49,125 nucleotides of DNA. It comes from Gemmatimonadota bacterium. GTDB lineage: Bacteria; Gemmatimonadota; Gemmatimonadetes; JACCXV01; JAHWKZ01. The notes beneath the pieces were generated by a model, which was given only the letters and a program-made list of their open reading frames with translations, made no database searches and was not told the DNA's origin. The position numbers and the translations under genes are program-made. Positions within the stretch are counted from its first letter, which is position 1. Each line of letters opens with the position of its first letter. The DNA lies in the NCBI GenBank assembly GCA_035249945.1, contig DATFFS010000033.1, positions 1 to 49,125 of the forward strand, read 5' to 3'. Shown here piece by piece: positions 21,868 through 29,396 of the stretch.

Positions 21868-23226
21868 TCAATGGTCTACCGGCAGTCCGCTCGGCACCTG
21901 GTCGGGCACGATGTTCGACAGGTTCCGGGCCCGCTCGTCGGTCAGCGCGCTCATGAACGCCATCAGCCGGTCGGTGACGCTGTCGGGGAACGCGACCCCG
22001 TCGATGATCGTGTCCCTGGTCGCGAGGATCTGGATGTGATTGGGAACCAGCGTTCCCTGGAGCAAGCCCTCGAGCTGTCCGACGTCGTACTCCTGGAGCT
22101 TCTTCCCCGAGTCGCTGTAGTGATCGATGAAGGCGCGCAGCTCCGTGAATTGTCCGGCGTGGCCGAAGGGGCCCGTCAGCTCCACGTTCCTGAGCGGGGT
22201 CGTCCGGAACTTGTAGATGTCCCTCGGATTTCCCGTCACCCGCTGACGGCCGAAATCGTCGTCTCCCAGGGGGCCGTCTCCCTGCCCCGGACCGAACTGC
22301 GCCAGCGCGACGTTGTGGAACTCGTCATCGCTGAACGTGGCACCGTTGTGGCAGATCGAGCAGCGGATCTCCATGAACACCTTGGCGCCTCGGAGCTGAC
22401 TCTCTGTCATGGCCCGGTCGCTCCCTGCCAGGAATCTGTCCCACGGGGTGTCGTTGAAGGCCAGCCGATCGAGGAGGAAGCCCGCCATCGCGTTCGAAGC
22501 GTGGGCGAACGTCATCTCCTCGAAGGGCGTCCCCGGGTAGGCGGCCTCGAACATCGCCACGTACTCCGGGATCGCTCCCAGGCGTGCCATGATGCCCGCC
22601 CAGATCCCCGGGAAATCCCGATCGTCGATCATTGCGAGCTCGTTCACGATTCCGAAGGCTCGCATCTCCTCCCGCGACGTGACCGGAAAGAGTCCGAGGG
22701 CGGAGATCGCGCCGAACTCGAAGGCCGCCGCCATTCCCGGCGTGATCGCGTCGCCGGCGGGAGTATGGAAGCCGCCCAGGTCGTCGACCTGTACGCGACC
22801 ATCCCAGAACAGGTGCCGGATGGCGTGCAGGTTGAACAGGGGCGGCGCATTCCTGGGAATGAAGAGACCCTCGGGGTGGATGCGGTCCCTACCCAGGCCC
22901 GTCGCTCCCTGGCCGATCGAGAGGCGCCGTCCATCGCCGGTGCCGAATCCGGGCAGGTGGCACGTCATGCACGAAATGTCGCGGTTGCCGCTCAGCTCCT
23001 TGTCGAAGACCAGTGCCTGTCCGAGAACGCTGAGCTCCGGCCGCACGAGCGAAGGCAACGCGAGCGGGACGACATTCCGTCCGGCGGCCAGTTGGCGCAC
23101 GCTGTCGGCCAGCGTGAGCTCTGGCTCGGGCTCGGGGCTCGTGCCCGCGGGGCCCGCGGGCTCCTCGCCACAGGCAGCTGACAGAAATACCAGACACAGG
23201 ATCTGAAGGAACAGGACGATGCGCAT
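21868..23226 (-). CDS. di-haem cytochrome c peroxidase / MauG family lipoprotein
   Basis: Run-on ORF 21868..23730 trimmed to ATG 23226 (MRIVLFLQILCLVFLSAACG lipobox). Two C-x-x-C-H haem motifs are present (CMTCH, CSICH). Confidence 0.8.
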   Translation of the reverse strand: MRIVLFLQILCLVFLSAACGEEPAGPAGTSPEPEPELTLADSVRQLAAGRNVVPLALPSLVRPELSVLGQALVFDKELSGNRDISCMTCHLPGFGTGDGRRLSIGQGATGLGRDRIHPEGLFIPRNAPPLFNLHAIRHLFWDGRVQVDDLGGFHTPAGDAITPGMAAAFEFGAISALGLFPVTSREEMRAFGIVNELAMIDDRDFPGIWAGIMARLGAIPEYVAMFEAAYPGTPFEEMTFAHASNAMAGFLLDRLAFNDTPWDRFLAGSDRAMTESQLRGAKVFMEIRCSICHNGATFSDDEFHNVALAQFGPGQGDGPLGDDDFGRQRVTGNPRDIYKFRTTPLRNVELTGPFGHAGQFTELRAFIDHYSDSGKKLQEYDVGQLEGLLQGTLVPNHIQILATRDTIIDGVAFPDSVTDRLMAFMSALTDERARNLSNIVPDQVPSGLPVDH

Positions 23227-23356
23227 GTTGCCGCCTGTGCGGATGGTGAAGCGGAACGATGGTTCAACGGCGTCTCCCCCTACATACGGAAAACCGAGCA
23301 GCCGTCCGACATCGGCTCTGGCGGGCGGGCCTCTCCGCCCCCAACTTGCGTTGACG

Positions 23357-26065
23357 ATGGACGCGGATCGCTGGCGCCGGGTGCAGCAGGTGCTGGACGC
23401 TGCGCTCACCCGCAAGCCGGGCGAGTGGCCCGCCCTGCTCGATGAGACCTGCAGCGACGACCCCGAGCTCCGCCAGGAGGTCGAGGCGCTGCTCGCCCGG
23501 GTCGACACCGCGCAACGCTTTCTCGAATCTCCTCCCGCCGCGCTCGCGGCCGCCCTGGCCGCTGAGGAGGCCGCGGCGAGCGCCGGCCACATGGGGCGTC
23601 GCATCGGCGCGTACCGTCTCGTAGAGGAGATCGGGCGTGGCGGCATGGCGCGCGTCTTTCTCGCCGAGCGCGCCGACGGCCAGTTCGAGCATCGGGTCGC
23701 GCTCAAGCTCCTGCGTCCCGGCCTGGACACGGAGATCGATCGGGAGCGCTTCCGCGCCGAGCGGCAGATCCTGGCGAACCTCGATCACCCGAACATCGCG
23801 CGGCTCCTGGATGGCGGCGTCACCGACGACGGCCAGCCGTATCTCGTGCTCGAGCTCGTGAAGGGTCGACCGATCGACGTTTTCTGCAACCAGGCTGAGC
23901 TGTCGCTGCGGGAGCGGCTGGACCTCTTCCTGACGGTCTGCGAGGCGACCAGGTACGCTCATGGACGTCTCGTCGTCCATCGCGACCTGAAGCCATCGAA
24001 CATCCTGGTCACCGAGGATGGCGTGGTGAAGCTCCTCGATTTCGGACTCGCCAAGCTCCTCGAGCCGCGAGCGCCTGTGCCATCGATGACGCGCACCGGA
24101 CAGCGCTGGATGACCCCGGAATATGCCGCCCCGGAGCAGATCCGAGGCGAGCCGGTCACCACGCTTACCGACGTCTATCAGCTGGGCATGGTGTTGTACC
24201 GGCTTCTGGTCGGCCAGGCCCCGTTCGCGGGTCGTCGCGCCGGCCTTCACGAACTCGAGGAGGCGGTCTTGCACGAGGAGCCGGAACGGCCGTCGTCGGC
24301 CGCATTCCGCGGCGGCGCCGTCGCGTGGAAGTCCCTTCGCGGTGACCTCGACGCGATCGTGCTGATGGCCATCCGCAAGGAACCCGAGCGGCGATACCCG
24401 TCCGCCGAGGCGATGGCGGCGGATCTCAGGCGATTCCGAGATACACGTCCGATCCTCGCTCGCCCGAACACGCTGCCGTACCGGTTCCGGAATTTCGCGC
24501 GTCGCCACCGCGGCGCGGTCGTGGCCGGAACCGCCGTGGTCCTCACGCTGATCGGGGCCTCGATCTTCTCCCTCCATCAGATGCGCGAAGCGCAGGAGCA
24601 GCGCGATGCGGCGCTCAGGGCGAGTGATCGGGCGGATGCGCAGGTGGAATTCCAGGGCGCCCTGTTGTCCGAAGTGGGCGACAGGCCGATCACTATGCGG
24701 GAGGTCCTGGACTCCGCCCGCAAGGTCCTGGAACGGCGATCCGGGGGCGACCCTCGACTCCAGACCGCGCTTCTGCTCCAGCTTGCAGAGGCCTATTCCA
24801 CACTGCACGACACCCGCAGCCGCGAGAACATGCTGATGCGCGCGGAATCGCTGGCGATGTCCGCCGCACCGGATCGGCTACCCGAGGTTCGGTGCCAGAT
24901 GGCGGACAATCTGCGGCTGGATGGCCGGTACGATGAGGCATGGCGGATGCTCGACGCCGCTGAAGGGTTGCGCCGGAGGGTCGTCCCCGACGACCCGGAC
25001 GTCGAGATCGCCTGCCTCGCCGCGCTTTCGTACCTCGCCAGTGAAGCCGGCGCTGACCGAGGTCGTACCGCGGAAGGCGTCACCGCGGCCCGCCGTGCCC
25101 TGGCGATCAAGGACAGCCTCGGACAGACGCGCGATCTGGCCTACCTGAATCTGTTGGGCGCCCTCGCATGGGCGCTCCATACGGAGGATCGGACGCGCGA
25201 GTCCGCCACGATCTTCCGGCGGGCTATCGCCGTGATGGACAGCGCCGGCAGACAGGGATCGGCCGACTACATGATTCAGCGACACAATCTGGGGGTCGCT
25301 CTGTGGAAGCTCGGCGAAATCGCGGAGGCCGAGCGGATCCTCGGCGAGGTCGTCCAGGCCGCCGAACGGATGGATCCCGGGCGCATTCCCTGGCAACCTG
25401 CGATCCACTACGCGGAAGCGGCCCTGACCACAGGAGATTCGCGATCGGCGCTCGAGTACTTCGACCGCGTGGTCGATCAGGCCGTACGCGATACGAGCCT
25501 CTACTGGGAGGGGCGCGGCTTGTTCGGCGCCGCCCGCGCCCAGATCCAGCTCGGACGGCTGGCGGAGGCTCGGCGCGCGAAGCTCCGGCTGGAGCAGATC
25601 ATTGCCCAGCATCCACAGGTCAAGGGCACGGACGATCAGGTGCCCGACGGACAGACTCTCGACGGCTGGCTCGCCATGGCGGAAGGCGATTGCGCGGAGG
25701 CGAGGGAGTCCTTCCTGGCGTCGCTGCGGGCCAATGGCTATTTCGAGGGGGAGCGCCAGCAACGCCTCCGACCGGTAGTGCTGCTCGCAGGGGAGTGTGC
25801 CCTGGCGCTCGGCGATCCGCAGGAGGCGCTCGACCTGGCCAGGCAGGCGCTCGAGATCGCTGTGATGGACTCGCTCTCGCATGGACGAAGCGCGGCGGTC
25901 GGCGAGGCGCTCCTCCTGGAGGCCCGCGCATTGCAGGCAAGGGGCGATGTTGGAGCCGCGGGCCAAGCTGCGCGCCGCGCTCTGGCCGCACTCCAGTTCG
26001 GGGCGGGCGCGGGCCACGCGCGCACGCGGGAGGCCCAGGCGCTTGTCGTAGCGCTGGGGTCCTAA
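23357..26065 (+). CDS. Ser/Thr protein kinase with one TM segment and a C-terminal TPR-like domain
   Basis: Trimmed to ATG 23357 (MDADRWRRVQQVLDAAL...). Kinase motifs are VALKLL, HRDLKPSNILV, DFGLAK and TPEYAAPEQ. The TM segment is AVVAGTAVVLTLIGASIF, followed by about 480 aa of helical repeats. Confidence 0.85.
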   Translation: MDADRWRRVQQVLDAALTRKPGEWPALLDETCSDDPELRQEVEALLARVDTAQRFLESPPAALAAALAAEEAAASAGHMGRRIGAYRLVEEIGRGGMARVFLAERADGQFEHRVALKLLRPGLDTEIDRERFRAERQILANLDHPNIARLLDGGVTDDGQPYLVLELVKGRPIDVFCNQAELSLRERLDLFLTVCEATRYAHGRLVVHRDLKPSNILVTEDGVVKLLDFGLAKLLEPRAPVPSMTRTGQRWMTPEYAAPEQIRGEPVTTLTDVYQLGMVLYRLLVGQAPFAGRRAGLHELEEAVLHEEPERPSSAAFRGGAVAWKSLRGDLDAIVLMAIRKEPERRYPSAEAMAADLRRFRDTRPILARPNTLPYRFRNFARRHRGAVVAGTAVVLTLIGASIFSLHQMREAQEQRDAALRASDRADAQVEFQGALLSEVGDRPITMREVLDSARKVLERRSGGDPRLQTALLLQLAEAYSTLHDTRSRENMLMRAESLAMSAAPDRLPEVRCQMADNLRLDGRYDEAWRMLDAAEGLRRRVVPDDPDVEIACLAALSYLASEAGADRGRTAEGVTAARRALAIKDSLGQTRDLAYLNLLGALAWALHTEDRTRESATIFRRAIAVMDSAGRQGSADYMIQRHNLGVALWKLGEIAEAERILGEVVQAAERMDPGRIPWQPAIHYAEAALTTGDSRSALEYFDRVVDQAVRDTSLYWEGRGLFGAARAQIQLGRLAEARRAKLRLEQIIAQHPQVKGTDDQVPDGQTLDGWLAMAEGDCAEARESFLASLRANGYFEGERQQRLRPVVLLAGECALALGDPQEALDLARQALEIAVMDSLSHGRSAAVGEALLLEARALQARGDVGAAGQAARRALAALQFGAGAGHARTREAQALVVALGS

Positions 26066-26078
26066 TCAGGAGTCGATC

Positions 26079-26630
26079 ATGAAACCTGACGAGCCAACGA
26101 CCCCTCCGCACGCGAGCGAAACTTCCTTCTCGATCGTCTACGATGAGTTGAAGCGAGTCGCCCGGCGACAACTCCGCGGCCAGGATGCCAACGCGACGCT
26201 CTGTACCACGGAGCTCGTTCACGAGGCGTACATGAAGCTGGGCAGCGCGGATGGCGATTGGGACAGCCGCGCTCACTTCTTCGGGTCGGCTTCCCGCGCC
26301 ATGCGTCAGGTCCTGGTCGACTTCGCGCGCCGGCGCCGAGCGGACAGGCGCGGTGGCTCCTGGCGGCGGGTCTCTCTGAGCGACGTCGGCGCCGCTTTGC
26401 AGATCGAACTGGATGAGATTCTGGCGCTCGACGACGCGCTCGAGCATCTCGACGCGGTGGATCCCCGGCTGCGGGAAGTCGTCGAGCTCCGGTTCTTCGG
26501 CGGCCTCTCCAACGAGGACGTCGGGCGGATCCTCGGTGTATCCCCCCGGACGGTGGAGCGCGATTGGCTGAAAGCGCGGCTCCTCCTGCTGCACGAGTTG
26601 CAACTCGCTCCGGGTTCGGATCCCGGCTAG
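26079..26630 (+). CDS. ECF-type sigma-70 factor (Sigma70_ECF / kinase-associated type)
   Basis: 183 aa. The pattern TELVHEAYMKL...HFFGSASRAMRQVLVDFARRR is typical of this ECF family, with a region 4 HTH (LSNEDVGRILGVSPRTVERDW). It starts 13 nt after the kinase stop. Confidence 0.8.
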   Translation: MKPDEPTTPPHASETSFSIVYDELKRVARRQLRGQDANATLCTTELVHEAYMKLGSADGDWDSRAHFFGSASRAMRQVLVDFARRRRADRRGGSWRRVSLSDVGAALQIELDEILALDDALEHLDAVDPRLREVVELRFFGGLSNEDVGRILGVSPRTVERDWLKARLLLLHELQLAPGSDPG

Positions 26631-26662
26631 CGCGACAGCCAGAGGCTCCCTCTCCGGACCCC

Positions 26663-26696
26663 AAAAACAAGCCGCCCGGCTTTCGCCGGGCGGCTC
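26663..26696 (-). terminator. Rho-independent terminator oriented for the minus strand
   Basis: Minus-strand read: GCCGCCCGGC-GAAA-GCCGGGCGGC, a perfect 10-bp stem extendable to 12 bp, immediately followed by UUGUUUUUGG. Confidence 0.7.
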
Positions 26697-27770
26697 TCGA
26701 CGCGCTGCACGAAGACAGCAAAAAATGAGGATCGGACGGGGCTGCGAGTCGCTTTCTCCTTCGAAGACTCGGCCGGTTCCGGCTTCGCGCGACCGCTCTC
26801 GCGGCCGGCGACTCCTCTCGTGGGGTTGGCGTCCCTTTCAGAGGTCGTACCGGCGAACCGTAGCGCGTCATCGGTTTCGCGCTCCCCCTCCGCCGTCAGC
26901 CACCGAAGTGGCCCCGGCCATGGGGTCTTCCTCGCTCGCCGGAGGCGCGTGGATGTCGAAGACGTCCGCGCACCGCCTCTCCTAGGGTTGGCTTCCCCTT
27001 CAGAGTATTGCCGGGCCGGCTTGCCGGCGCCCTCTCGGGCGCGGCGCCTCCCAGGAGTTCCTGCCCCTACAGCGTATGCAGATGCGGGAGCCCACTCACC
27101 CGGGATTTGCCTCGTCCCGGTTCGGGTGCGGCTGCAGGGTTTCTCACCCTCTTGCCGCGTTACGTCTCCCGCGTCCTTCCGACCGTTTAAGGCCGGTGAC
27201 GCTCATGGGGTTCTCCCCTTCGAAGCTTCTCCCTCCGGACGGAGCCGTGGCGCCTCTCGGCACCCGCTGCCCTCTTGCCGTTGTCGGCACTCGGCGTACG
27301 CAACCTAAGCTACGTACAACCGTTGGCAGACCCGGCTTCAGGGCCTTGCTCCCCGCCGGAGTCCGTCACGTTCGCACGGGGATTAGCCGTGCGGCCGCTC
27401 GCTGCTCCCCTGGGGTTCTCTCGCTCTAGGGCATTCCTCGAAGGCGTTGCCCCCGGCTTCCCGGCGGCTCCCCTCTCAGGCTTCTTCGCGGTTCGGCTTT
27501 CGCCGAGGCGACCGGCCTCCCAGGGTCTCGATCCGCTCTCGCGGTGCTGCGCTCCTCAGTCCGAAGAATGATCGGAGCCGCAACCCTTCTGCGATTTTCG
27601 CACCTCGTTTCCCTTCCGCGCGCTTCGAGCCGCGTCGTCCCGGGCTTGCGCCGAACGGTACCGGTAACATCGCTGTCCCGGATGTCCGTTCCATGGGACG
27701 TCCGTCGAGCTCTCCCGGAGGGCTCGCGGATGGAATGTCGGTGCCAGACTCGGGCCGTCATCCGACCCTC
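26663..27770 (-). ncRNA. candidate large (~1.1 kb) structured non-coding RNA, family unknown
   Basis: Bounded by a near-consensus promoter and an intrinsic terminator, with no credible ORF in any frame. It holds many perfect GNRA- and UUCG-capped hairpins and internally repeated modules. A 12-bp helix pairs nt 1-12 of the predicted transcript with 26738-26727. I found no match to the RNase P, tmRNA or SRP signature sequences that I can recall. Confidence 0.6.
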
Positions 27771-27776
27771 GACGCC

Positions 27777-27806
27777 AGTATACGGGACCCCTTCGCAAGG
27801 TGTCAA
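27777..27806 (-). promoter_or_regulatory. strong sigma70-type promoter driving the non-coding transcript
   Basis: On the minus strand: TTGACA (27806-27801), 18-nt spacer, TATACT (27782-27777). The -35 sits in the loop of the inverted repeat TCGCAA/TTGCGA (27793-27816). The expected TSS is near 27770. Confidence 0.65.
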
Positions 27807-28085
27807 ACCATTGCGAGAAAAAGGGTTACGGGACCGGTCGTCGAACGGCGCAAGGTGCTGGAGCGGGGCGGCTTGGAGTCCGCGAGCTAAACCGCCGGGT
27901 CAACTGATCGCCCCAACTGGGGCGCGTTCATCCGCTTGTAAGACTGCCAACATCGCAGACACGAAGGCTCCACAGGACCGCGCGAATTCTCCACTCCCTG
28001 TCCCCCGATTATCCACAGGTAATTCACACTTCAGGAACGATTCCCGAGGGGATGACTCCATACACGCGCGCAGCGCACGGCGCGG

Positions 28086-29396
28086 TCAGAGCAGATTTGC
28101 GGCGTACTCGGCGAGCTTGGACCGCTCGCCCTTCCGGAGCTCGACGTGCGCGGCCAGCGGCACGGTGCGGAAGTGGCTGACGACGTGATTGAAGCCGTTC
28201 GTGGAGGAGTCGATGTACGGCGTGTCGATCTGCCAGGGGTCGCCGGTCAGGACGAGCTTGGTGTTCTCCCCCACCCGCGTGAGGATCGTCTTGACCTCGA
28301 GGGGCGTCAGGTTCTGCGCCTCGTCGACGAGCATGAACTGCTGGGGGATCGACCGTCCCCGGATGTGCGTCAGCGGCTCGACGGCGAGCGCGCCCTTCTG
28401 GACCAGATCGTCGACGGTGCGGGTGCCGTTCCGCGCCGGCCGGCCGTCGAGGAGGAGCGCGAGGTTGTCGTAGATCGGCTGCATCCAGGGGTTGAGCTTC
28501 TGCTCGACCGAGCCCGGCAGGTAGCCGATGTCCTTCCCCATGGGGAACGTGGGCCGGGAGATGAGGAGGTGCCGATAGGTCGTGCGGTTCAGAACCTGCT
28601 CGAGCCCGGCGGCGAGCGCGAGCAGCGTCTTCCCCGTCCCCGCCTTCCCCATGATCGTCACCAGGACGACCGTCGGATCGAGGAGCGCGTCCAGCGCGAA
28701 GTACTGCTCCTTGTTCCGCGGGCGGATCCCCTGCACGCCCCCGGCGACGTCGATCAGCGCCCGCAGGACGCCGCCGACGGGATCGATCCGCGCGAGGGCC
28801 GTGTTCGACGGGTTCTCGCGGTCCTTGAGGAGCGCGTACTCGTTGGGAAAGAAGTCGCCCTCGGAGACGGGAAGCTGGCCGTTCGCGCGGAAGCGCTCGA
28901 GCTCCTCGGCATCCATCTCGATCTCGGTATGGCCGCTGTAGAGCTCGTCCAGGTCGACGCGGTCGGTCTCGTAGTCCTCGGCGACGAGCCCCATCGCGTC
29001 GGCCTTGATCCGGAGGTTCACGTCCTTCGTGACGAGGATGAGCGGCGTGTCCGGCGCGTCGTCCTGGATGCGCCGCGCGATCTTCAGGATCTCGTTGTCG
29101 ACCCAGCCGTCGGAGCGGGCGATCACCCGCTGCGGGTCGTCGGGGTCGAAGACCACTCTCAGCCGGCCGCCGGCGTCCAGCTCCACGCCGTCGGAGAGCC
29201 GCCCGCGCTCCCTGAGACCGTCGAGGAAGCGGCTGATCCAGCGCGCGTTCTCGCCCAGGCGCGTCAGCTGCTTCTTGAACCGGTCGATCTCTTCGATGAC
29301 GTAGATGGGGACCAGGACGGAGTTGTCCTGGAAGGCGGTCAGGGCCGTGGGGTCGTGGAGCAGGACGTTGGTGTCGAGGAGGTAGCGCTTCCTCAT
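28086..29396 (-). CDS. PhoH2-type protein: N-terminal PIN domain fused to a PhoH-like ATPase
   Basis: 436 aa. PIN N-terminus YLLDTNVLLHDP, Walker A GKAGTGKT, Walker B LVDEAQN, and GDPWQID. Confidence 0.85.
   Translation of the reverse strand: MRKRYLLDTNVLLHDPTALTAFQDNSVLVPIYVIEEIDRFKKQLTRLGENARWISRFLDGLRERGRLSDGVELDAGGRLRVVFDPDDPQRVIARSDGWVDNEILKIARRIQDDAPDTPLILVTKDVNLRIKADAMGLVAEDYETDRVDLDELYSGHTEIEMDAEELERFRANGQLPVSEGDFFPNEYALLKDRENPSNTALARIDPVGGVLRALIDVAGGVQGIRPRNKEQYFALDALLDPTVVLVTIMGKAGTGKTLLALAAGLEQVLNRTTYRHLLISRPTFPMGKDIGYLPGSVEQKLNPWMQPIYDNLALLLDGRPARNGTRTVDDLVQKGALAVEPLTHIRGRSIPQQFMLVDEAQNLTPLEVKTILTRVGENTKLVLTGDPWQIDTPYIDSSTNGFNHVVSHFRTVPLAAHVELRKGERSKLAEYAANLL

What the first reader, a model, noticed from the sequence alone, without database searches (positions are those of the whole stretch)
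26663..27806. Orphan ~1.1-kb transcription unit with no ORF: candidate novel large structured RNA
Intergenic gaps elsewhere in the window are under 200 nt, but 26631-28085 (1455 nt) has no credible CDS. The ORF-track entries here (26820..27308+, 27076..27429+, 27275..27571+, 27447..27890+, 27544..28188+, 27426..27806-, 27476..27694-, 27556..27798-, 26077..26871-) overlap each other in all frames. They translate to Arg/Pro/Ser/Gly-rich strings. Read on the minus strand, there is TTGACA (27806-27801), an 18-nt spacer and TATACT (27782-27777). About 1.1 kb downstream lies GCCGCCCGGC-GAAA-GCCGGGCGGC (26694-26671) followed by UUGUUUUUGG, an intrinsic terminator oriented for this strand only. The interior is dense in perfect hairpins closed by stable tetraloops. 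In plus-strand coordinates with RNA-sense sequence these include: 27249-27264 GGUGCC-GAGA-GGCGCC; 27027-27042 GCGCCC-GAGA-GGGCGC; 26791-26806 GGCCGC-GAGA-GCGGUC; 27533-27544 CCGC-GAGA-GCGG; 27493-27506 UCGGC-GAAA-GCCGA; and 26899-26912 GCCAC-UUCG-GUGGC. There is also a 9-bp hairpin, 27296-27317 GUACGUAGC-UUAG-GUUGCGUAC, and a two-tier hairpin, 27128-27158 GCGGC-AAG-AGGGU-GAGAA-ACCCU-GCA-GCCGC. A dedicated strong promoter plus terminator, a length above 1 kb and many GNRA loops are the hallmarks of the rare large ornate bacterial RNAs (the OLE/GOLLD/ROOL class). I cannot match this sequence to any of them, nor to the RNase P, tmRNA or SRP signatures I can recall.
Basis: partly seen in the sequence, partly recalled or inferred. 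Interest (0 to 1): 0.88.

Follow-up and report, generated by a model that had tools for sequence, protein, structure and literature searches.

The report
New kilobase-sized structured bacterial RNA
The gene-free gap holds a real gene for a roughly 1,050-nucleotide, intricately folded non-coding RNA that matches no catalogued RNA family, occurs in several bacterial phyla, appears to be made as a discrete abundant transcript, and usually sits right after a gene for an RNA-unwinding, RNA-cutting enzyme.

Summary
On the minus strand, a near-consensus promoter (27806-27777) drives a non-coding RNA from about 27770 to about 26722. A second hairpin terminator ends at 26663.

Homologues:
- Two capped pattern scans returned 143 loci, and nhmmer confirmed all of them.
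- They include 115 sequences below 92% identity, from MAGs labelled Gemmatimonadota, Eisenbacteria, Krumholzibacteriia, Myxococcota, Planctomycetota and Acidobacteriota.

Not a known family and not coding:
- Rfam 15 gives no hit.
- There is no codon periodicity, while the neighbouring gene shows it strongly.

Structure:
- 196 consensus pairs, 159 of them with compensatory changes.
- One domain checked with the counting tool is 96.5% paired, against 83% in shuffles and 36-51% in slid controls.
- The 5' and 3' ends pair. Four domains follow.
- One module recurs nine times: 4 bp, a 3x3 purine loop (A.A / N.N / G.G, with A.A and G.G covarying), then 4-5 bp.

Expression: about 100 contigs of 1.0-1.3 kb start and stop at the predicted RNA ends, so they look like assembled transcripts.

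Context: a PIN-PhoH (PhoH2) helicase-RNase gene lies directly upstream in 25 of 36 informative loci.

Function is untested. My best guess is a trans-acting scaffold or regulator, possibly of PhoH2.

The parts
26722..27770 (-). Mature RNA, about 1,050 nt (RNA 5' end at 27770, 3' end at the U-run near 26722)
   Evidence: Family-wide conservation spans about 27765 to 26725. Short contigs start a median 177.5 nt before anchor 27594 (the window predicts 176) and end a median 34 nt after anchor 26756 (the window predicts 36). nhmmer finds a single copy in the window.
27777..27806 (-). Sigma-70-type promoter, TTGACA-18 nt-TATACT
   Evidence: 11 of 12 matches, the only site in 3.5 kb (0.2 expected). 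TTGACA and TATAMT are conserved in L001-L004 and L007.
27808..27829 (-). Conserved A+T-rich tract just upstream of the -35 box (GTAACYCTTTTT..GCAATGG); possibly an UP element
   Evidence: Conserved columns 297-318 of alignment A1. The UP-element function is inference.
27759..27770 (-). P1 closing helix, 5' strand; pairs with 26727-26738
   Evidence: Pairs 27770-27761 with 26727-26736 are 90-100% standard in 10 Gemmatimonadota sequences, with one G-C to A-U swap. Other subfamilies have closing stems of different sequence that start at contig base 1-4.
26727..26738 (-). P1 closing helix, 3' strand, followed by A-UUUUUU (26726-26720)
27595..27758 (-). 5' domain, variable between lineages in length and sequence
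   Evidence: Divergent homologues align only from HMM position about 200 onward. Helix support here is weaker.
27421..27594 (-). Domain A, closed by module 1 (27594-27583 with 27432-27421); contains module 2 (27525-27515 with 27481-27471)
   Evidence: 93-100% paired with 2-6 pair types per position.
27216..27414 (-). Domain B, closed by module 3 (27414-27404 with 27226-27216); contains helix 27361-27351/27244-27233, module 4 (27344-27333 with 27280-27269) and the GAGA hairpin 27262-27251
   Evidence: Module 3 is 99.1% paired with 77 double-change cells.
27064..27210 (-). Domain C, closed by module 5 (27210-27199 with 27075-27064); contains hairpin 27196-27179, helix 27176-27166/27090-27080, the two-tier hairpin 27158-27128 and hairpin 27120-27101
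   Evidence: Alignment A3 of 70 sequences: 39 pairs, 29 with changes on both sides; 96.5% paired against 83.4% in shuffles (0 of 500) and 36-51% when partners are slid.
26756..27057 (-). Domain D, closed by module 6 (27057-27047 with 26766-26756); contains nested modules 7 (27005-26995 with 26825-26815), 8 (26987-26977 with 26843-26833) and 9 (26925-26915 with 26895-26885), plus GNRA hairpins 27045-27023 and 26811-26785
   Evidence: Long-range pairings are 97-100% paired with 41-151 double-change cells. Local-hairpin alternatives are 32-74% paired with 1-30 such cells.
26663..26719 (-). Gemmatimonadota-specific 3' extension with a second intrinsic terminator (hairpin 26696-26669 plus U-run)
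   Evidence: The sequence GCAGCGCGTCGAGAGCCGCCCG is invariant in L001-L004 and L007. It is absent from most other lineages (occupancy 0.1-0.3).
27966..28029 (-). Cluster of DnaA-box-like 9-mers about 250 nt upstream of the RNA 5' end; the one perfect TTATCCACA is at 28009-28017
   Evidence: It is the only perfect box in the 49-kb window. The cluster sits at a fixed position in Gemmatimonadota. Such boxes are enriched upstream of the RNA: 1.2 per 350 nt against 0.08 background. They are also seen in L153. Whether the cluster belongs to the RNA gene is inferred.
28086..29396 (-). PIN + PhoH (PhoH2-type) gene directly upstream on the same strand; candidate partner
   Evidence: Pfam PIN_4 at 4e-32 and PhoH at 8e-50. 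The same arrangement occurs in 25 of 36 informative loci, down to 54-61% PhoH identity.

Best explanation
This is the gene for a previously uncatalogued class of large, stable, trans-acting structured RNA.

**Shown or strongly indicated**
- A strong housekeeping-type promoter starts transcription at about 27770.
- The first 10-12 nt pair with the last 10-12 nt before a U-run at about 26722. The mature molecule is therefore a closed particle of about 1,050 nt.
- Inside, a lineage-variable 5' domain is followed by four domains (A-D) joined by 4-7 nt A-rich linkers.
- The RNA contains nine copies of one module: a 4-bp G/C helix, a 3x3 internal loop with homopurine A.A and G.G pairs, and a 4-5 bp helix. 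Modules 1, 3, 5 and 6 close domains A-D; the other five lie inside them.

**Inferred**
- The RNA works as a folded scaffold or regulator, not as a message or a cis element.
- The nine identical loops are repeated docking sites, either for several copies of one protein or for tertiary contacts that build the particle.
- The most likely partner is the hexameric PIN-PhoH (PhoH2) RNA helicase/RNase encoded immediately upstream. The RNA would recruit, hold in check or be remodelled by it. This would resemble the way Y RNA genes sit beside Ro protein genes and gate that RNA-decay machine.
For: **Real, non-coding, structured**
- Promoter and terminator confirmed.
- No Pfam match for the overlapping ORFs.
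- No period-3 signal: variability by codon phase is 0.195/0.188/0.193 with a power ratio of 0.3. The adjacent PhoH gene in the same genomes gives 0.114/0.089/0.281 with a ratio of 305.
- MFE z-score of -7.5.
- 196 consensus pairs, 159 with compensatory changes, on 106 sequences with about 70 effective sequences.
- The counting tool on domain C gives 96.5% paired and a covariation score of 0.426, against 0.174 in shuffles (0 of 500) and 0.06-0.09 for slid controls.
- Abundant G-U pairs fix the strand.

**Trans-acting and discrete**
- It has its own promoter and paired ends.
- Contig ends coincide with the predicted RNA ends.
- Downstream genes differ between loci, and in the window the downstream gene is convergent.

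**New family**
- No Rfam 15 hit for the window or for 20 diverse homologues.
- Nothing in phage or plasmid collections.
- Nothing in eight searches of the paper library.

**Repeated module**.

**PhoH2 link**
- A same-strand PhoH gene lies directly upstream in 25 of 36 loci. These include lineages whose PhoH is only 54-61% identical (L031, L140, L153, L005). L153 was found by synteny alone.
- PhoH2 is described as a hexameric RNA helicase with a PIN RNase ring (PMC7390352).
Against: - No experiment bears on function, and the partner is inferred from gene order only.
- Eleven of 36 informative loci lack an adjacent PhoH. These include the two Myxococcota MAGs, L045 and L149.
- PhoH genes in Eisenbacteria (L152), Verrucomicrobiales and Chloroflexi loci lack the RNA next to them.
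- The synteny could be inherited among related phyla and have no functional meaning.
- That the short contigs come from metatranscriptomes is inferred from their ends. The sample type was not verified.
- All pattern-derived homologues share the 19-nt search motif, so the distribution and the invariance of that hairpin are biased.
- The covariation statistics are not phylogeny-corrected, because R-scape was not available.
Confidence: 0.55

Rival explanations
1. An RNA-only architecture. The nine purine-loop modules and the conserved GNRA loops are tertiary-contact elements. They fold the RNA into a compact particle, or into a homo-oligomer like ROOL, GOLLD and OLE. No dedicated protein partner is needed, and the PhoH adjacency is incidental.
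For: - Several conserved GNRA-type loops exist: GAGA at 27258-27255 and 26799-26796, and GNGAA at 27145-27141.
- The identical modules all have the same polarity, each next to a G/C helix.
- The RNA occurs without a neighbouring PhoH in Myxococcota and other loci.
- ROOL, GOLLD and OLE form RNA-only assemblies (PMC12286853).
Against: - By eye, none of the conserved hairpin loops is self-complementary, so there is no obvious kissing-loop site. No tool was run for this.
- No loop-receptor covariation could be established. The non-nested MI signals are ambiguous.
- The model leaves the deep PhoH synteny unexplained.
Confidence: 0.25
2. An RNA antitoxin or inhibitor of the PIN-PhoH2 toxin-like RNase, in the manner of type III toxin-antitoxin systems. 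The repeated modules would each bind and neutralise one subunit. The small PhoAT protein antitoxin of mycobacteria has no counterpart here.
For: - The RNA is adjacent to PhoH2 in 25 of 36 loci.
- No small ORF lies between the aldehyde dehydrogenase gene and PhoH.
- In mycobacteria PhoH2 is treated as a toxin-antitoxin system with PhoAT (PMC7390352).
- The RNA carries a nine-fold repeated module.
Against: - Type III antitoxins are short tandem sequence repeats placed upstream of the toxin gene and cut by the toxin (my own knowledge). Here the RNA lies downstream with its own promoter.
- The repeats are structural, not tandem in sequence.
- The whole 1 kb is under structural constraint.
- The RNA is strongly conserved across phyla and often unlinked to PhoH, which is unlike fast-evolving TA modules.
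Confidence: 0.1
3. A large ribozyme, or the RNA subunit of a catalytic RNP with an unknown reaction.
For: - It has the size, extreme conservation of unpaired nucleotides and multi-domain architecture seen in RNase P and the self-splicing introns.
- The same argument has been made for OLE (abstract of PMC11332333).
Against: - There is no similarity to any ribozyme model in Rfam.
- A nine-fold repetition of one simple module looks more architectural than catalytic.
- No substrate is suggested by the genomic context.
Confidence: 0.07
4. Not an RNA gene: a decayed protein gene, a missed CDS, a mobile element or a cis-regulatory leader.
For: - Long stop-free frames exist, with a median of 203 codons across homologues. 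This is expected at 63% G+C.
- Public annotations call hypothetical ORFs over the region: 188 aa in L003 and 270 aa in L008.
Against: - No period-3 signal, while the flanking gene has a strong one.
- No Pfam hits.
- Helices covary with G-U pairs on one strand.
- Single copy in the window, with no phage or plasmid matches.
- It has its own promoter and terminators, and the downstream gene is convergent.
Confidence: 0.02

Closest known systems
OLE, GOLLD and ROOL RNAs (large ornate bacterial RNAs; Rfam RF01071, RF01998, RF03087)
   Same: All are long (0.6-1 kb), highly structured stand-alone non-coding RNAs. All have many conserved unpaired nucleotides and GNRA loops, and biochemical function was unknown at discovery. 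This RNA is longer than any of them.
   Different: - There is no sequence or structure homology.
- The hosts differ: Gemmatimonadota, Krumholzibacteriia, Myxococcota and others, against Bacillota for OLE.
- It is chromosomal with conserved synteny, not associated with prophages or tRNA islands as GOLLD and ROOL are (PMC12286853).
- To my knowledge, a single module repeated nine times and closing every domain has not been described for those RNAs.
Bacterial Y RNA with Ro60 (Rsr), which gates PNPase-mediated RNA decay (my own knowledge)
   Same: A non-coding RNA gene lies next to the gene for a ring-shaped RNA-binding protein of RNA quality control. The RNA's 5' and 3' ends pair in a closing stem. 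This is the functional analogy I propose.
   Different: Y RNAs are about 100 nt with a tRNA-like module. The protein here is PIN-PhoH2, not Ro. No binding has been shown.
Type III toxin-antitoxin RNAs such as ToxI (my own knowledge)
   Same: A repetitive RNA is encoded beside an endoribonuclease gene and could neutralise a multimeric enzyme.
   Different: ToxI-type RNAs are short tandem sequence repeats placed upstream of the toxin gene and processed by it. Here there is a single 1-kb covarying fold downstream of the enzyme gene, with its own promoter, and often unlinked to it.
CsrB/RsmZ-type protein-sponge RNAs (my own knowledge)
   Same: One RNA carries many copies of a small purine-rich element, which suggests multivalent protein binding.
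   Different: Csr sponges display GGA in hairpin loops on a loosely conserved scaffold of 100-400 nt. Here the repeated element is a 3x3 internal loop embedded in long-range covarying helices of a rigidly conserved 1-kb fold.
6S RNA, RNase P RNA, tmRNA and SRP RNA (housekeeping stable RNAs)
   Same: It has a strong promoter, paired termini and apparent high abundance, and it is a single chromosomal copy. One homologue (L057) lies directly upstream of an SRP RNA gene.
   Different: No model of any of these matches. It is three to ten times longer than they are, and its distribution across bacteria is patchy.

Membership tests
OLE / GOLLD / ROOL / HEARO / raiA and every other Rfam 15 family | Match to the family's covariance model at or near its gathering score | tested here: not met
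   No gathering-level hit in the whole window. In the region only noise appears at E up to 10, best 18 bits against thresholds of 35-88. No hit to the RNA in 20 diverse homologues.
Group II intron (including ORF-less or permuted forms) | A domain V/VI match, flanking exons, an intron-encoded protein or multiple copies | tested here: not met
   No Intron_gpII or D1-D4 model hit. The RNA has its own promoter and paired ends and no flanking exons. It is single copy. No ORF has a Pfam match.
tRNA / tmRNA / RNase P / SRP / 6S | Detection by ARAGORN or by the Rfam models | tested here: not met
   ARAGORN finds no gene in the window. No Rfam hit.
Protein-coding gene or pseudogene | Three-base periodicity of substitutions; similarity to a protein family | tested here: not met
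   Variability by phase is 0.195/0.188/0.193 with power ratio 0.3. The PhoH control gives 0.114/0.089/0.281 with ratio 305. No Pfam hit.
Riboswitch or cis-regulatory leader | Sits in the 5' UTR of a same-strand gene whose identity is conserved | tested here: not met
   The RNA is followed by a U-run and a hairpin terminator, then a convergent ECF sigma gene in the window. The downstream gene is a thiolase in L001-L004, tyrS in L017 and a convergent decarboxylase in L140.
Type III toxin-antitoxin RNA | Tandem direct sequence repeats immediately upstream of the toxin gene | tested here: not met
   Only degenerate two-copy matches were found and no tandem array. The RNA lies downstream of PhoH with its own promoter.
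Type III toxin-antitoxin RNA | Processing by, and inhibition of, the neighbouring RNase | not testable with these tools
   This needs biochemistry.
Csr/Rsm-type sponge RNA | Multiple GGA motifs exposed in hairpin loops or single-stranded spacers | tested here: not met
   The purine-rich repeats lie in 3x3 internal loops and in helices that are 97-100% paired.
Large ornate bacterial RNA (descriptive class, not a homologous family) | Over 500 nt, a stand-alone transcription unit, a multi-domain covarying structure and many conserved unpaired nucleotides | tested here: met
Phage- or plasmid-borne RNA (as for GOLLD and ROOL) | Occurrence in viral or plasmid sequence | tested here: not met
   No match in IMG/VR with the 19-nt motif. 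No blastn match in PLSDB.

The most novel reading that the evidence does not exclude
A new, phylogenetically broad class of kilobase-sized bacterial RNA is the architectural or regulatory subunit of a PhoH2 (PIN RNase plus hexameric helicase) ribonucleoprotein. Its nine identical purine-loop modules would be docking sites. This would be a bacterial RNA-remodelling or RNA-decay machine organised by a giant RNA, with synthesis possibly tied to DnaA and growth state through the upstream DnaA boxes. It would also give PhoH2, a near-ubiquitous protein of unknown role, its first natural RNA partner.
Probability: 0.3. Interest if true: 0.95.

Novelty: categorically new. Interest (0 to 1): 0.9.

Why it matters
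- **Rarity.** Only a handful of bacterial non-coding RNAs longer than 500 nt are known. Each has opened new biology: catalysis, membrane RNPs, RNA-only cages.
- **Size and reach.** This RNA is longer than OLE, ROOL and GOLLD, spans several poorly studied phyla and appears highly expressed in environmental samples.
- **Unusual design.** It has a strikingly regular architecture, with one module repeated nine times.
- **A testable lead.** It gives a concrete hypothesis for PhoH2-type helicase-RNases, which are found across bacteria and archaea and whose function is poorly characterised (PMC7390352).
- **A cryo-EM target.** It has a ready alignment of more than 100 sequences.
- **A warning on annotation.** Gene callers currently place hypothetical proteins over it.

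Tried and rejected
1. **Known RNA family.** Rfam 15 was run at gathering level on the window, at E up to 10 on the region, and at gathering level on 20 diverse homologues. ARAGORN was also run. Nothing matched.

2. **Coding or pseudogene.** Pfam and the periodicity tests were negative.

3. **Local-hairpin reading of the repeated GGGG-loop-CCCC units.** Long-range pairings are 97-100% paired with 41-151 double-change cells. Local alternatives are 32-74% paired with 1-30 such cells.

4. **Kink-turn, sarcin-ricin or 11-nt tetraloop-receptor identity for the 3x3 loop.** I considered these from memory.

5. **Replication origin, because of the DnaA boxes.** Cumulative GC skew runs monotonically through the region with no turning point. 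There is no A+T-rich unwinding element. Rejected in favour of a regulatory or titration site.

6. **Phage or plasmid origin.** No hits.

7. **Family-wide test of the closing helix with RNAduplex against shuffles.** Uninformative in G+C-rich sequence, with median z of -0.6 to -0.9. Replaced by column counts in Gemmatimonadota and inspection of contig ends.

8. **A possible extra pairing in domain C.** Columns 111/183 and 115/184 of A3 covary, but in parallel register and with only two states. This may be lineage coupling and is left open.

9. **Literature.** Eight full-text searches, one of them for the sequence motif itself, found no description. The smtA 'Soda Lake' RNA is unrelated.

10. **PhoH loci of Eisenbacteria (L152), Verrucomicrobiales and Chloroflexi.** No RNA lies next to the gene there.
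Full report
**1. What is in the window**

The 1,455-nt stretch 26631-28085 lies between two genes. One is a PIN+PhoH gene (28086-29396, minus strand; Pfam PIN_4 at 4e-32, PhoH at 8e-50). The other is a convergent ECF sigma gene (26079-26630, plus strand). The mutually overlapping ORFs inside the gap have no Pfam match.

On the minus strand the consensus scan finds one promoter-like site in 3.5 kb, where 0.2 are expected. The scan also finds the 12-bp GAAA-capped terminator at 26696-26669, followed by GTTTTTGG.

Rfam 15 gives no match at gathering level anywhere in the window. In the region it gives only noise at E up to 10. ARAGORN finds nothing.

**2. Homologues**

Proteins close to the window's PhoH come from Gemmatimonadota MAGs. 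I fetched loci for relatives at 93, 81, 79, 77 and 75% PhoH identity. Each has a 1.3-1.6 kb stretch right after PhoH that is either gene-free or covered only by a hypothetical ORF with no Pfam match. That stretch aligns with the window from the -35 box to the terminator, and compensatory changes are visible. A locus at 61% PhoH identity also carries the element.

I then scanned with a conserved 19-21-nt motif.
- One genome per species (GTDB) returned 23 loci.
- nhmmer confirmed every one of the 143.

The record titles name Gemmatimonadota, Candidatus Eisenbacteria/Eiseniibacteriota, Myxococcales/Deltaproteobacteria, Planctomycetota and Acidobacteriota MAGs. A Candidatus Krumholzibacteriia locus, L153, was found by PhoH synteny alone.

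After removing sequences at least 92% identical, 115 distinct sequences remain. None of 20 diverse members hits an Rfam family. The one exception is an SRP RNA gene that happens to lie beside one of them. The motif is absent from IMG/VR, and the RNA has no blastn match in PLSDB.

One caveat applies. All scan-derived members contain the search motif by construction. L153 shows the motif is not truly invariant: it has GGGCCAACGAACCC in place of GGGUGAGAAACCC. The real family is therefore larger than sampled.

**3. Not coding**

Across six genomes the region shows no three-base periodicity of substitution. Variability by phase is 0.195/0.188/0.193, and the period-3 power is 0.3 times the median. 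The adjacent PhoH gene, in those genomes plus L001, gives 0.114/0.089/0.281 and 305 times the median. The family-wide alignment agrees.

**4. Structure**

A MAFFT L-INS-i alignment of 106 sequences has about 70 effective sequences. From it I computed an RNAalifold consensus and APC-corrected mutual information.
- The strongest MI pairs fall into nested, mostly long-range helices.
- Of 196 consensus pairs, 159 show compensatory double changes. Most helices are 95-100% paired with 3-6 pair types per position.

I checked domain C (27216-27060) with the counting tool on a fresh alignment of 70 sequences.

| Measure | Observed | Shuffles | Partners slid 1-3 columns |
|---|---|---|---|
| Cells paired | 96.5% | 83.4% (0 of 500 reach it) | 36-51% |
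| Covariation score | 0.426 | 0.174 | 0.06-0.09 |

In that domain, 29 of 39 pairs change on both sides. Frequent G-U pairs fix the minus strand as the RNA strand. The window's RNA has an MFE of -543.8 kcal/mol against -474.7 +/- 9.2 for dinucleotide shuffles, z = -7.5.

**5. Architecture**

The first nucleotides pair with the last nucleotides before AUUUUUU.
- Positions 27770-27761 pair with 26727-26736. Nine of the ten pairs are fully standard in all 10 Gemmatimonadota sequences, and the tenth is standard in 9 of 10.
- Other subfamilies have closing stems of unrelated sequence. They begin at base 1-4 of the contig and end 1-14 nt before its end in most of the contigs where a stem was clear.

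After a lineage-variable 5' domain come four domains:
- A, 27594-27421
- B, 27414-27216
- C, 27210-27064
- D, 27057-26756

They are joined by A-rich linkers of 4-7 nt.

Each domain is closed by the same module, and the module recurs inside the domains, nine copies in all. It consists of a 4-bp helix (usually CCCC/GGGG), a 3x3 internal loop and a 4-5 bp covarying helix.

In the loop the opposed positions behave as follows.
- A.A lies next to the G/C helix and switches to G.G in a minority of sequences.
- The middle position is N.N and varies freely.
- G.G lies next to the variable helix and switches to A.A in a minority of sequences.

These non-Watson-Crick covariations are among the strongest MI signals.

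The units that look like GGGG-loop-CCCC hairpins are in fact the junctions between consecutive domains.

| Pairing model | Cells paired | Double-change cells |
|---|---|---|
| Long-range (modules 3, 5, 6, 7, 8) | 97-100% | 41-151 |
| Local hairpin alternatives | 32-74% | 1-30 |

I could not match the loop to a named three-dimensional motif.

**6. Evidence for a discrete transcript**

Of the 120 metagenome-collection hits, 103 are contigs of at most 1.4 kb, with a median of 1,109 nt. Their ends are not random relative to the RNA.
- The distance from the contig's 5' end to the anchor column of 27594 has a median of 177.5 nt, and 47 of 84 fall between 150 and 200. The window's predicted start at 27770 gives 176.
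- The distance from the anchor of 26756 to the contig's 3' end has a median of 34 nt. The window's U-run gives 36.

The closing stems sit at the contig termini. Together these results indicate assembled RNA molecules of about 1.0-1.2 kb. I could not verify the sample types, so this step remains an inference.

The hairpin terminator at 26696-26663 and the invariant spacer before it are specific to Gemmatimonadota.

**7. Context**

The gene order in the window is acyl-CoA dehydrogenase, enoyl-CoA hydratase, aldehyde dehydrogenase, PIN-PhoH, then the RNA. Relatives share this order. The ECF sigma plus Ser/Thr kinase pair (23219-26630) is inserted downstream of the RNA in the window only.

Thirty-six loci hold at least 900 nt upstream of the RNA match. 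In 25 of them a PhoH gene lies on the same strand and ends within about 1.1 kb upstream of the RNA match, mostly 225-400 nt.
- These include lineages whose PhoH is only 54-61% identical to the window's: L031, L140, L153 and L005.
- Exceptions include both Myxococcota MAGs, L045 and L149.
- Conversely, PhoH loci from an Eisenbacteria, a Verrucomicrobiales and a Chloroflexi MAG have no RNA beside them.

PhoH2 proteins are described as hexameric RNA helicases fused to a PIN RNase. In mycobacteria they are paired with a small protein, PhoAT (PMC7390352). No such small ORF is present here.

**8. Interpretation**

*Shown*
- This is a conserved, single-copy, non-coding transcription unit.
- Its RNA has an extensive covarying secondary structure and paired ends.
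- It belongs to no catalogued family.

*Strongly indicated*
- It exists as a discrete and probably abundant transcript of about 1.05 kb in many uncultured bacteria.

*Inferred*
- It acts in trans as a folded particle.
- The nine identical purine loops are repeated docking sites.
- The best candidate partner is the PhoH2 helicase-RNase encoded upstream. This would parallel the Y RNA/Ro arrangement, a comparison that rests on my own knowledge.

*Confidence*

| Claim | My estimate |
|---|---|
| It is a genuine structured RNA gene | about 0.97 |
| It has not been described before | about 0.75 (subscription-journal papers were not searchable) |
| The scaffold/regulator reading with a PhoH2 link | about 0.3-0.4 |

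The rivals are an RNA-only self-organising particle, an RNA antitoxin of PhoH2 and a ribozyme. They are scored separately in this report.

**9. Limits**

- No R-scape or phylogeny-aware statistics were available.
- The alignments are sequence-based, which is conservative for structure.
- MAG taxonomy labels may be wrong.
- The homologue set is biased by the search motif.
- No experimental data exist.

Noticed in passing
window 27966-28029 (perfect box at 28009-28017); also L002-L004, L007, L012, L013, L019, L020, L022, L045, L065, L089, L153:2410-2450: A cluster of DnaA-box-like 9-mers lies between the PhoH stop codon and the RNA promoter. The sequences are TGTGGATAA / GTGGAGAA / TGTGGAGCC, spaced about 11 nt apart. 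In Gemmatimonadota the cluster sits at a fixed -250. Boxes are enriched about 16-fold upstream of the RNA across lineages. The window's only perfect TTATCCACA is here. GC skew shows no origin-like turning point, so this looks like a DnaA regulatory or titration site rather than oriC.
   Followed up: partly
window 23219-26630 (plus strand): An ECF sigma factor (26079-26630) and a Ser/Thr kinase with TPR repeats (23219-26065) sit between the RNA and the thiolase/enoyl-CoA hydratase genes. In all fetched relatives those genes follow the RNA directly. This looks like an insertion specific to this genome, and it makes the RNA's terminator face a convergent gene.
   Followed up: partly
window 26697-26719, and L001-L004/L007 at the equivalent positions: The spacer between the U-run and the second terminator, GCAGCGCGUCGAGAG, is invariant among Gemmatimonadota. 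The hairpin stem that follows it is also invariant. That is more conservation than a terminator needs. It may be a processing or protein-binding site.
   Followed up: no
L041, L057, L083, L084, L100 (contigs of 1.3-1.8 kb): These members match only the 3' half of the model and carry about 900-1,100 nt upstream of it. Either a substantially larger variant of the RNA exists, or their 5' half is very divergent.
   Followed up: no
L133:5-503 and 565-1455; L057:1-142: L133 holds two copies of the RNA in tandem. In L057 a bacterial large SRP RNA gene (Rfam RF01854, 60.7 bits) lies directly downstream of the RNA on the same strand.
   Followed up: no
L003:5849-6415, L008:2300-3112: Public gene calls place hypothetical proteins with no Pfam hit on top of the RNA: 188 aa in L003 and 270 aa in L008. 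These are likely annotation artefacts and will recur in databases.
   Followed up: partly
alignment A3, columns 111/183 and 115/184 (window about 27125/27095 and 27122/27094): Two strongly coupled column pairs in domain C (C-G/G-C and A-U/G-C) run in parallel register and do not fit the nested structure. They could be a tertiary contact or simply a split between two subfamilies.
   Followed up: partly
L002:1820-2505, L007:1479-2128, L001:1930-2193: PhdYeFM antitoxin genes, with VapC-like PIN toxin genes in L002 and L007, sit just upstream of the aldehyde dehydrogenase-PhoH-RNA block in several relatives. They are absent from the window.
   Followed up: no
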